This document shows, piece by piece, positions 989 to 47,156 of a stretch of 64,000 bases of DNA (positions are counted from its first letter, which is position 1; every line of letters begins with the position of its first letter). The position numbers and the translations under genes were made by a program. Location of the stretch: NCBI RefSeq assembly GCF_009914755.1, contig NC_060925.1; one strand, 5' to 3'. The notes beneath the pieces were generated by a model. That model ran no database searches. It had not been told where the DNA came from and saw only the letters and a program-made list of their open reading frames with translations. Source of the stretch: the human T2T-CHM13v2.0 reference genome, Homo sapiens.

Positions 989-2266
989 CTCCCATCCTGT
1001 AGGTTGCCTGTTCACTCTGATGGTATTTTCTTTTGCTGTGCAGAAGCTCTTTAGTTTAATTAGATCCCATTTGTCAATTTTGGCTTTTGTTGCCATTGCC
1101 TTTGGTGTTTAGACATGAAGGCCTTGCCCATGCCTATGCCCTGAATGGTACTGCCTAGGTTTTCTTCTAGGGTTTTTATGGTTTTAGGTCTAACATGTAA
1201 GTCTTTTATCCATCTGGAATAAATTTTTGTATAAGGTGTAAGGAAGGGATCCAGTTTCAGCTTTCTACATATGGCTAGCCAGTTTTCCCAGCACCATTTA
1301 TTAAATAGGGAATCCTTTCCCCATTTCTTGTTTTTGTCAGACAAAGGGCTAATATCCAGAATCTACAATGAACTCAAACAAATTTACAAGAAAAAAACAA
1401 ACAACCCCATCAAAAAGTGGGCAAAGGATATGAACAGACACTTCTCAAAAGAAGACATTTATGCAGCCAGAAAACACATGAAAAAATGCTCATCACTGGC
1501 CATCAGAGAAATGCAAATCAAAACCACAATGAGATACCATCTCACACCAGTTAGAATGGCGATCATTAAAAAGTCAGGAAACAACAGGTGCGGGAGAAGA
1601 TGTGGAGAAATAGGAACACTTTTACACTGTTGGTGGGACTGTAAACTAGTTCAACCATTGTGGAAGTCAGTGTGGCGATTCCTCAGGGATCTATAACTGG
1701 AAATACCATTTGACCTAGCCATCCCATTACTGGGTATATACCCAGAGGATTATAAATCATGCTGCTATAAAGACACATGCCCACGTATGTTTATAGCAGC
1801 ACTATTCACAATAGCAAAGACTTGGAACCAACCTAAATGTCCAACAACGATAGACTAGATTAAGAAAATGTGGCACATATACACCATGGAATACTATGCA
1901 GCCATAAAAATAATGAGTTCATGTCCTTTGTAGGGACATGGATGAAACTGGAAACCATCATTCTCAGCAAACTATCGCAAGGACAAAAAACCAAACACCG
2001 CATGTTCTCACTCATAGGTGGGAATTGAACAATGAGAACACATGGACACAGAAAGGGGAACATCATACACTGGGGACTGTTGTGGGGTGGGGGGAGGGGG
2101 AGGGATAGCATTAGGAGATATACCTAATGCTAAATGACGAGTTAATGGGTGCAGCACACCAACATGGCACATGTATACATATGTAACAAACCTGCACGTT
2201 GTGCACATGTACCCTAAAACTTAAAGTATAATAATAATAAAATAAAAAAATTAAAAAAATACAAAA
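989..2266 (+). mobile_element. 5'-truncated, 5'-inverted primate L1PA (about L1PA3-5); inverted part 989-1340, sense part 1340-2266
   Basis: ORF2 peptides on both strands (1060..1344 -, 1271..1696 +), L1PA 3'UTR, A-rich tail, and a 15-bp TSD AAAACATGATATTTT at 974-988 and 2267-2281. Confidence 0.95.
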
Positions 2267-2749
2267 AAAACATGATATTTTGATACACATATGTATTGTA
2301 GAATGGCTAAAGTTAATTAACATATACCTTTAGCTCATGTACTTATTTGTTTGTGGTGAGAACACTTACAATCTACTGTTAGCAATTTTCAAGTATATAA
2401 TACATTATTATTAACTATAGTCACCAAGATATGCAGTAGAGCTTTTAAAATTATTTCTCCTATCTAACTGAAATTTTGTACCCTTTGATAAACATTTTCA
2501 AAACTCTCCCCTCAACTGCTCAACCAATTTCAGCCTCTGGTAACCAACATTCTACTCTCTGCTTTTATGAGTTTGACTTTTTTTAGATTCCACATATGTG
2601 TGAGATCACATGGTGTTTGTCTTTCTGTTCCTGGCTTATTTCACTTAGCATAATATCATCCAGGTTCATCCATCTTGTTGCAAACAGGACTTCTTTCTAT
2701 ATATGGCTGAATAATATTTTATTGTGTATGTATACCACATTTTCTTATA

Positions 2750-2834
2750 TTAGGTTGGTGCAAAAGTAATTGTGTATTTTTTTTTGCCATTACTTTCAAT
2801 GGCAAAAACTGCAATAACTTTTGCACCAACCTAA
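2750..2834. mobile_element. MADE1 (Hsmar1 mariner-derived MITE)
   Basis: Terminal inverted repeats TTAGGTTGGTGCAAAAGT...ACTTTTGCACCAACCTAA, about 85 bp, flanked by TA on both sides (2748-2749, 2835-2836). Confidence 0.93.
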
Positions 2835-43909: not shown

Positions 43910-44520
43910 GAGACACCAGGGAACTTGGAAGAGATGATCAACTAATTATCAATGCCATTTTTTTCCATTTTTCTTTTTTTGAGACAGAGTCTCATTTTAT
44001 TACACAGGCTGGAGTGCAGAGGCACAATTTTGGCTCACTGCAACCTCCGTCTCCTGAGTTCGAGTGATTCTCCTGCCTCAGCCTCCTGAGTAACTAGGAT
44101 TACAGGCACCTGCCACCATGCCCGGGTAATTTTTGTGTTTTTAGCAGAGATCGGGTTTCGCCATGTTGGCCAGGTTGGTCTCAAACTCCTTACCTCAGAC
44201 GATCCACCTGCCTCGGCCTCCCAGAGTGCTGGGATTACACGCATGAGCCGCTGTGCCCCACCTTCTGTTTTTTTATTTTATTATTTGTTTCTATTAGACC
44301 TGTGAGATTTTGGATCTGTGGTGTTCTCTGCATCCTCTTTGCTAAGTGAGAGAAGTACGGAACTGTGCCAAAAATAATATTGCAATAATGACTCCCTGGA
44401 GTTTTGGAAAGTATAAGTACCAAGCAACATTTTGGGGCCCTAGCTAATAAGAGACTAATGAAAAGTTTTCCAATGATGCTTTGGGCGATGCTTCTCAGAA
44501 TTATCAGAAGAGCAGGTAGG
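43910..44520 (+). promoter_or_regulatory. OR10R1P: Putative promoter/exon 1 of OR10R1P, interrupted by an Alu
   Basis: CACCAGGGAA at about 43914, CAACTAAT 43939-43946, then the Alu, TGCTAAGTGA 44340-44349, TAATGACTCCCTGGAG at about 44386-44401, TACCAAGCA, GCTAAT, and donor-like CAG/GTAGGT at 44515/44516. Confidence 0.5.
43958..44262 (-). mobile_element. AluS-type SINE
   Basis: T-rich tail followed by a reverse dimeric Alu. Confidence 0.93.
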
Positions 44521-45768
44521 TAAACAGAGTTTGGGGCCTTGAGAGGTCAATAGTAGAAAGGAATAGAATAGTGTTATTTCAATATAGAAATGGTTGTGAT
44601 AACATTAAGTTTTGAGTCTCATCTCATTAGAAGATTTCACTGGATTACAATAGCTAAGTTCTAGGGAACATCAGAAAATAACCCTGTTTGGATTATTTTA
44701 TGTGGGAAAGTGAATGAAGATAGTATGTGAATTTACTAACAGAAAAGTACCAGTCACCATGCTCATTTTAGAAATGCTCTTATTCTCCCGTGAGTTTTAG
44801 TTTGTTTATCTAGTTACTCAGTGATAGTGAGATAATATATGATAGCTTGAAAAAATGGAAGATAGTATAGGGCTTGGGAGAGATAAAATAGAGCCTCACC
44901 AAATGAGCTACAATAAGCTATTGCTTCAAGCAAATGCCATGAAATATGTTATATTGAGCCCATAGCACTGATTACTTCCCTATGAGCCATCTCAGAAAGA
45001 CTGATTCCTTAAGCAAGGCTTCTCTGGGTAACTGAAAAGGAAAAAAATAGATACCCATAACTTTCCGTCAAGAATGAGCTTTCAACAGTTCACTCACTTT
45101 TCATTCTCAAATGTCACATGAGAGTATTATCTGGTGACAAAGGTATATTAGAAATGTCCAAGCAATGAGGAGGTAAAAAAATGAGTGTCTAATTAACTTG
45201 CCATTCTTTACAGACCTTCTGCTGTTTTTGAATCTCACCATCCTAACATTCTGTGGACAAAAAATCTACTGCATAAGCCTCAGAGATAGCAACTGGGGAG
45301 GTAAATAAATTGCACTCCTCAGGGAAGATACTGGTACTATTTTTTTCGTTAGTCACCAGTTAATAAATAAAGTATTGTGAAGAGCCAGACTGAGAGATAA
45401 AAAAGTAAAAATAAAAATAAATGCCACAGTAGGGAAATTCATGAGAGCTAGATCCAGTTCATATTCCACAACTTCTTGGTCGTGTGAAAGATCAAATTGT
45501 GGGTAGTACAATCATAAATATGCAATGTGATCTAGTAGGTTGCAAACTGGATCTTTATTCCCATCAATTTCCTTTTGAGGCTTAAAATTCCATCACACCC
45601 TTAATGAGCTTAAATAATGCCTTTTACAGATGCCCTTTATATAATAAAATATTTAATAATCAACTAATTGAACAAGTAGCTTTTAGATAGCAATTTGTTT
45701 GTAGATATTATGGGGAATACAAAATTACTCCAAGGCCTTTATGCTCTGATATATGAAAAAGTGCATTT

Positions 45769-47156
45769 AACAGAGATATAGACCAATGGAACAAAACAGA
45801 GCCCTCAGAAATAATGCCACATATCTACAACCATCTGATCTTTGACAAACCTGACAAAAACAAGAAATGGGGAAAGGATTCCCTATTTAATAAATGGTGC
45901 TGGGAAAACTGGCTAGCCATATGTAGAAAGCTGAAACTGGATCCCTTCCTTACACCTTATACAAAAATTAATTCAAGATGGATTAAAGACTTACATGTTA
46001 GTCCTAAAACCATAAAAACCCTAGAAGAAAACCTAGGCAATACCATTCAGGACATAGGCATGGGCAAGGACTTCATGTCTAAAACACCAAAAACAATGGC
46101 AACAAAAGCCAAAATTGACAAATGGGATCTAATTAAACTAAAGAGCGTCTGCACAGCAAAAGAAACCACCATCAGAGTGAACAGGCAACCTACAGAATGG
46201 GAGAAAATTTTTGCAACCTACTCATCTGACAAAGGGCTAATATCCAGAATCTACAATGAACTCCAACAAATTTACAAGAAGAAACCAAACAACCCCATCA
46301 AAAAGTGGGCCAAAGATATGAACAGACACTTCTCAAAAGAAGACATTTATGCAGCCAAAAAACACATGAAAAAATGCTCATCATCACTGGCCATCAGAGA
46401 AATGCAAATCAAAACCACAATGAGATACCATCTCACACCAGTTAGAATGGCGATCATTAAAAAGTCAGGAAACAACAGGTGCTGGAGAGGATGTGGAGAA
46501 ATAGGAACACTTTCACACTGTTGGTGGAACTGTAAACTAGTTCAACCATTGTGGAAGTCAGTGTGGCGATTCCTCAGGGATCTATAACTGGAAATACCAT
46601 TTGACCTAGCCATCCCATTACTGGGTATATACCCAGAGGATTATAAATCATGCTGCTGTAAAGACACATGCCCACGTATGTTTATAGCAGCACTATTCAC
46701 AATAGCAAAGACTTGGAACCAACCCAAATGTCCAACAATGATAGACTGGATTAAGAAAATGTGGCACATATACACCATGGAATACTATGCAGACATAAAA
46801 AATGATGAGTTCATGTCCTTTGCAGGGACATGGATGAAGCTGGAAACCATCATTCGCAGGAAACTATCGCAAGGAGAATAAACCAAACACCGCATGTTCT
46901 CACTCATAGGTGGGAATTGAACAATGAGAACACATGGACACAGGAAGGGGAACATCACACAATGGAGACTGTTGTGGGGTGGCGGGAGGTGGGAGGGATA
47001 GCATTAGGAGATATACCTAATGCTAAATGACAAGTTAATGGGTGCAGTACACCAACATGGCACATGTATACATATGTAACAAACCTGCACGTTGTGCACA
47101 TGTACCCTAAAACTTAAAGTATAATAATAATAAAAAAATTTAAAAAAGAAAAAAAA
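45769..47156 (+). mobile_element. 5'-truncated L1PA (about L1PA3-5)
   Basis: ORF 45814..46587 is the L1 ORF2 C-terminus, followed by 3'UTR and A-tail. TSD GAAAAAG(T/C)GCATTT at 45755-45768 and 47157-47170. Confidence 0.96.

What the first reader, a model, noticed from the sequence alone, without database searches (positions are those of the whole stretch)
1690..46690. Two L1PA copies 44.9 kb apart share a patch of private substitutions (candidate ectopic gene conversion)
Seen: 1691-1800 and 46582-46691 are identical except at one base (GCTATA vs GCTGTA). Both read CTATAACTGG, GACCTAGCC, CCCAGAGGA, ATGCCCACG and TTTATAGCAGC. The L1PA consensus as I recall it reads CTAGAACTAG, GACCCAGCC, CCCAAAGGA, ATGCACACG and TTTATTGCGGC, giving 7 shared departures (1694, 1699, 1716, 1745, 1781, 1795, 1798), only one at a CpG. 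Just outside the patch the copies differ repeatedly (GGGACT/GGAACT, CCTAAA/CCCAAA, AACGAT/AATGAT, CTAGAT/CTGGAT), and each has its own TSD, so they are independent insertions. Inference: a 110-190 bp conversion tract. The copies are direct repeats, so a crossover would delete or duplicate OR10R2 and OR10R3P together.
Basis: partly seen in the sequence, partly recalled or inferred. Interest (0 to 1): 0.7.

Follow-up and report, generated by a model that had tools for sequence, protein, structure and literature searches.

The report
Copied patch between neighbouring L1 repeats
Two separately inserted, dead L1 jumping-gene copies 45 kb apart on human chromosome 1 share a short patch of four rare mutations that no other copy examined carries together, most likely because DNA repair copied about 100-200 bases from one onto the other, a known and probably harmless kind of event.

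Summary
Both halves of the patch match exactly at only these two places, out of 10,379 and 7,222 L1 copies within three mismatches. The copies are independent L1PA4-type insertions with their own target-site duplications and unrelated flanks. Corrections: only four of the seven shared departures are private (1694, 1716, 1745, 1781); 1699 and 1795 are lineage variants and 1798 is CpG decay. The identity run alone is not significant (P=0.12), so the case rests on the rare alleles. All four change the ORF2 protein and one is a stop codon, which argues against a shared active parent. Best reading: one non-allelic gene conversion, tract 88-196 bp, probably from the left copy into the right. The predicted 45-kb deletion or duplication is absent from 150 people in one survey. 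An assembly artefact and the age could not be tested here. A second, longer candidate turned up by accident on chrX, so such patches are probably not rare. New member of a known kind.

The parts
989..2266 (+). L1 copy A, L1PA4-type, 5'-truncated, with a twin-priming inversion (about 984-1340 inverted, 1337-2242 forward, then A-rich tail); likely donor
974..988 (+). 5' target-site duplication of copy A
   Evidence: 15 of 15 bases match 2267-2281
2267..2281 (+). 3' target-site duplication of copy A
45769..47156 (+). L1 copy B, L1PA4-type, 5'-truncated, no inversion; likely acceptor
45755..45768 (+). 5' target-site duplication of copy B
   Evidence: 13 of 14 bases match 47157-47170
47157..47170 (+). 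3' target-site duplication of copy B
1638..1833 (+). Maximal tract in A, bounded by A/B differences at 1637 and 1834; lies in the remnant of the ORF2 C-terminal region
1694..1781 (+). Minimal tract in A: four rare shared alleles, 1694 (stop), 1716, 1745, 1781 (missense); lineage allele 1795 likely extends it
46529..46724 (+). Maximal tract in B; rare shared alleles at 46585, 46607, 46636, 46672; one B-only base at 46658

Best explanation
Two independent L1PA4-type insertions share four rare, protein-damaging alleles within one 88-196 bp patch, most likely because a single non-allelic gene conversion copied that patch from one copy onto the other, probably from the left copy (A) into the right (B). 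Shown: separate insertions, a haplotype found nowhere else in the searches, sharing confined to the patch. Inferred: A gathered the four mutations after it inserted; a break or nick in B was repaired using the misaligned A as template without a crossover; one later mutation or unrepaired mismatch left the single difference at 46658. The event is likely late in the copies' history.
For: Exact matches: 2 of 10,379 and 2 of 7,222. The best other hit to the 196-bp patch was 97% (40 of 2,562 candidates scored). In the patch each copy is the other's nearest of 83 sequences; just 5' of it the partner ranks 31 of 74 and 19 of 75. No shared non-CpG allele at 20% frequency or less lies outside the patch. 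Of 3,309 control pairs, 15 shared 4 or more minor alleles in 110 bp, and all 15 shared them along the whole element (8-49 sites, subfamily signal); none was confined to a patch. The four rare alleles are 1 nonsense and 3 missense, while 1699, 1795 and 1798 are synonymous. Four in 196 bp (2.0%) matches one copy's private density outside the patch, 1.6-1.8%. Direction: 1795A occurs in 13 of 16 relatives with A's flank allele 1834T and 2 of 22 with B's 1834C (p=8.5e-6). The tract size fits the 250-bp mean for human non-allelic conversion (bioRxiv 10.1101/135152).
Against: The identity run alone is not significant (P=0.12). Two other copies carry 2 of the 4 rare alleles: L004 has 1694T and 1716T; L028 has 1716T and 1745G plus B's 1767G, so these sites do recur. 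In the 3' flank A is B's nearest of 81 sequences, and in the inverted part B ranks 2 of 62 for A, so the copies are close relatives anyway. The 82 control copies were chosen on patch alleles and are not a random sample. 44.9 kb exceeds the roughly 10-kb range reported for Alu conversion. No second human assembly or ape orthologue could be examined.
Confidence: 0.85

Rival explanations
1. Assembly or polishing artefact: bases from one copy were written into the other in this reference.
For: Only one assembly was available; the copies are 96% identical and near each other.
Against: One difference remains in the middle of the patch. Both copies are under 1.4 kb with unique flanks, so long accurate reads should span them (general knowledge, not tested).
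Confidence: 0.05
2. Two successive unequal crossovers between A and B (a 45-kb duplication, then its collapse) left a swapped patch rather than a simple conversion.
For: The copies are direct repeats at 96% identity, about the threshold at which LINE pairs are enriched at CNV breakpoints (PMC4344489). The end product would look the same.
Against: It needs two rare events with crossovers under 200 bp apart. OR10R2 has copy number 2 in 150 of 150 people. The TEMR table has no coordinate beginning 1583-1586 (format checked; the GRCh38 position of the locus is recalled).
Confidence: 0.04
3. Both copies are siblings from one rare source element that carried the haplotype.
For: Same subfamily; both also share commoner alleles at 45865 and 45994 (each 20-25% of the sample).
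Against: The haplotype includes a stop codon about 110 codons before the end of ORF2 and three missense changes. No third sibling was found. The flank lineage markers disagree (1834 and 1948). Rare sharing is absent outside the patch.
Confidence: 0.03
4. Both copies were converted by a third L1, or the patch passed through an L1 cDNA template.
For: L028 on the same chromosome shares 1716T, 1745G and B's 1767G. cDNA-mediated conversion is described for yeast elements (PMC6598467).
Against: L028 lacks 1694T, 1699G, 1781C and 1795A. No third copy carries the full haplotype. Both copies lack the L1 promoter.
Confidence: 0.02
5. Chance parallel mutation.
For: Private alleles recur in about 1.8% of other copies per site, CpG included.
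Against: About 2e-6 per pair, or about 0.003 expected over some 1,700 neighbouring pairs; 0 of 3,309 control pairs show the pattern.
Confidence: 0.01

Closest known systems
Non-allelic gene conversion between neighbouring Alu elements (Aleshin and Zhi 2010, seen only as summarised in PMC8230782 and PMC6598467)
   Same: Detected from shared non-diagnostic mutations between nearby copies of a repeat.
   Different: L1 rather than Alu; 44.9 kb apart, against a reported range of about 10 kb.
Conversion among LTRs on the human Y (Trombetta et al. 2016, as summarised in PMC6598467)
   Same: A cluster of derived alleles traceable to a donor copy.
   Different: That work used population polymorphism; here there is a single assembly.
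Non-allelic conversion in human gene duplicates (bioRxiv 10.1101/135152)
   Same: Tract of the same order as the 250-bp mean; about 4% divergence is inside the under-5% range they modelled.
   Different: Dispersed retrotransposon copies, not duplicated genes.
LINE-LINE NAHR deletions and duplications (PMC4344489; TEMRs in PMC9675761)
   Same: Same substrate: directly oriented L1 pair at about 96% identity.
   Different: Non-crossover outcome with no copy-number change; homology is only about 0.9 kb in direct orientation.
L1 gene conversion in mouse (Burton et al. 1991; Tremblay et al. 2000; titles seen in reference lists only)
   Same: L1-to-L1 conversion is established as a process.
   Different: Mouse; texts not read.

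Membership tests
Non-allelic gene conversion tract | Paralogues of independent origin (not one duplicated block) | tested here: met
   Separate TSDs, different 5' structure, unrelated flanks
Non-allelic gene conversion tract | Shared derived alleles that are not family or lineage markers | tested here: met
   Four alleles rare in relatives; each half exact in only 2 copies genome-wide
Non-allelic gene conversion tract | Sharing confined to a short tract; relationship switches at its edges | tested here: met
   Partner rank 1 of 83 inside; 31 of 74 and 19 of 75 just 5'; 20 of 81 for A but 1 of 81 for B on the 3' side
Non-allelic gene conversion tract | Significantly long run of identity (GENECONV-type inner test) | tested here: inconclusive
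   Permutation P=0.12; low power at 4% divergence
Non-allelic gene conversion tract | Non-reciprocal transfer with no change in flanking arrangement | tested here: met
   Both copies carry the same alleles and each keeps its own matching TSD pair; a double crossover is not excluded
Non-allelic gene conversion tract | Ancestral state of the acceptor seen in outgroups or other haplotypes | not testable with these tools
   No ape genome or second human assembly is held (header: no relatives)
L1PA4 subfamily | 3' end diagnostic bases | tested here: met
   By eye, A and B match two L1PA4-labelled 3' ends and differ from the L1PA3- and L1PA5-labelled ones in the PMC9675761 supplement; no Dfam alignment was run
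L1-L1 NAHR copy-number variant | Deletion or duplication with a chimeric L1 junction | tested here: not met
   Both copies have matching TSD pairs; OR10R2 copy number 2 in 150 of 150

The most novel reading that the evidence does not exclude
Conversion between neighbouring dead L1 copies is common in the human genome and reaches tens of kilobases, well beyond the roughly 10 kb reported for Alus, and this tract is human-specific or still polymorphic. A scan of the T2T genome for shared private alleles would then give a genome-wide map of non-crossover ectopic repair against distance. A second candidate pair (chrX, 14.4 kb apart) appeared in 1 of the 2 other close pairs examined.
Probability: 0.35. 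Interest if true: 0.5.

Novelty: new member of a known kind. Interest (0 to 1): 0.27.

Why it matters
The patch lies in dead, intergenic repeat DNA and no function is expected. It shows that these two L1s have probably paired ectopically at least once, which makes them a plausible but unobserved breakpoint pair for a 45-kb rearrangement covering OR10R2, OR10R3P and a thymus lncRNA locus. Its main value is as a clean worked example of a signal that could be counted genome-wide to measure L1-L1 conversion by distance; such conversion also distorts repeat dating and subfamily calls.

Tried and rejected
Subfamily signature: rejected for four alleles, accepted for 1699 and 1795. Segmental duplication: rejected, flanks unrelated. 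Run-length test: not significant. A recalled degenerate 13-mer PRDM9 motif occurs twice in the window and not within 1-4000 or 43500-49500, so no hotspot motif support. Site 1948 was mis-registered by an indel and is ignored; one search is used for it. A chr4 pair 117 kb apart shared no rare allele. Exact genome-wide frequencies per allele were not obtained; frequencies come from listed rows and from 40 flank-selected plus 82 patch-selected copies. Literature: ten searches found no description of this tract and no genome-wide survey of conversion between neighbouring L1s. The library lacks most subscription papers, four look-ups by recalled id and the Tremblay paper were not held, and bioRxiv supplements are closed, so absence from print is not established.

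Full report
Observation. The window holds two young L1 fragments on the + strand. Copy A (about 989-2266) has an inverted 5' part (984-1340) joined to a forward part from 1337, the twin-priming pattern; copy B (45769-47156) is simply truncated. Each has its own target-site duplication, and the flanks align only through Alus, so they are separate insertions and not one duplicated block. By eye their 3' ends match L1PA4-labelled copies and differ from L1PA3- and L1PA5-labelled ones in a published table. They differ in 49 of 1,269 aligned columns: 1 of 196 in 1638-1833 and 48 of 1,073 outside.

Is the haplotype private? The first 40 bases of the patch match exactly at only these two places. The search does count the family: 10,379 places lie within three mismatches, 8 of them at one mismatch. 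The second 40-base stretch gives 2 exact of 7,222, with 46 at one mismatch, 41 of them carrying 1795A and 5 carrying 1781C. The best other match to the whole 196 bp is 97% (40 of 2,562 candidates scored). The seven sites are not equal, however. In 40 relatives picked on 3'-flank sequence only (20 from each of the 40-row lists; fetched), 1694T, 1716T, 1745G and 1781C occurred in 0 of 32, 1 of 32, 0 of 34 and 0 of 35 copies covering the site; 1795A in 15 of 38 and 1798A (CpG decay) in 5 of 38. 1699G marks a younger lineage. Against full privacy, L004 and L028 each carry two of the four rare alleles, and L028 also has B's 1767G; none of the 56 other loci in that table carries three.

Is it more than chance? 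The length of the identity run is not: a 196-bp span with at most one difference arises in 12% of permutations. The shared rare alleles are. Among 82 other copies (84 fetched, 2 duplicates dropped), 15 of 3,309 pairs shared four or more minor alleles in 110 bp, and all 15 shared them along the whole element; A and B share four, all in the patch and none outside. With a stricter 5% cut-off only two of the four count, because the control set was selected on these alleles. A rough calculation with the observed 1.8% recurrence per site gives 2e-6 per pair, against about 1,700 pairs within 50 kb.

How it most likely arose. In the ORF2 frame 1694T is a stop codon where 30 of 32 relatives have the same Glu codon, and 1716, 1745 and 1781 are missense, whereas 1699, 1795 and 1798 are synonymous. 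This is what mutation after insertion gives, not inheritance from an active parent (inference). Four in 196 bp equals one copy's private load outside the patch, 1.6-1.8%. So one copy's mutations now sit in both and the other's are gone, which is the signature of non-reciprocal copying. 1795A travels with 1834T (13 of 16) and rarely with 1834C (2 of 22) (25 of 28 against 19 of 54 in the biased set). A has 1834T and B has 1834C, so A is the likelier donor, at odds of about 9 to 1. The tract is at least 88 bp (1694-1781) and at most 196 bp. Divergence inside is 0.12 of that outside (95% range 0.003-0.66). With a recalled L1PA4 age near 18 million years (PMC5237266 gives 20.4 for L1PA5), that is about 2 million years, but the range includes times before the human-chimpanzee split, and the single difference could be an unrepaired mismatch rather than a clock tick.

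Consequences. A crossover between the forward parts would remove or double 44.9 kb including OR10R2 and OR10R3P. In the supplement of PMC2978733, OR10R2 has copy number 2 in 150 of 150 people; one person has one copy of OR10R3P alone. The TEMR table of PMC9675761 has no coordinate starting 1583-1586 (format seen in 44; locus position in GRCh38 recalled). No function is expected for the tract.

How ordinary is it? Conversion between Alus, between LTRs and between gene duplicates is documented (PMC6598467, parts 1-2 of 4 read; PMC8230782, passages; bioRxiv 10.1101/135152, passages), and L1 conversion in mouse appears by title in reference lists. A pangenome L1 preprint removed 35 of 2,267 young full-length L1s as recombinants (PMC13192797, passages). 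PMC4344489, PMC12350158, PMC6504780, PMC3023731, PMC5237266, PMC3055243 and PMC5640379 were seen as passages only; PMC9675761 and PMC2978733 as supplement rows only. Among the 40 rows were three close pairs; I examined two. A chrX pair 14.45 kb apart, with unrelated 3' flanks and different 5' structure, has no difference over about 320 bp and shares six alleles seen in at most 1% of the 82 copies. A chr4 pair 117 kb apart shares none. This suggests such patches are not rare, which lowers the interest of this single locus and raises that of a genome-wide survey. My ten searches found no such survey for L1, within a library that lacks most subscription papers.

Verdict. Real, very likely a non-allelic gene conversion tract, a new member of a known kind. 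Artefact, direction and age await a second human assembly and ape orthologues.

Noticed in passing
G000:C23 about 50,499,070-50,499,865 and 50,484,500-50,485,415 (L111/L131/L135 and L116/L132/L136): Two L1PA4-type copies on chrX, 14.45 kb apart on the same strand, with unrelated 3' flanks and different 5' structure, are identical over about 320 bp and share six alleles found in at most 1% of 82 other copies plus two at 9%: a second, longer candidate L1-L1 conversion.
   Followed up: partly
G000:C3:176,205,848 and 176,231,831: Another close pair (26 kb apart, same strand) with equal scores among B's relatives; not examined.
   Followed up: no
L028 (G000:C1:106,279,442): This L1 shares 1716T and 1745G with both copies and 1767G with B, but not the other patch alleles; chance or a partial third-party exchange.
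   Followed up: partly
window 984-1340: The inverted 5' part of copy A forms a 96% inverted repeat with B 45851-46208, so the pair could also mediate an inversion.
   Followed up: no
window 7534-28018, minus strand: The predicted lncRNA LOC107985213 lies antisense to OR10R2, as does the thymus-specific Thy-ncR1 described in PMC3023731; they may be the same locus.
   Followed up: no
window 6785-7120: Short-period simple tandem repeat array.
   Followed up: no
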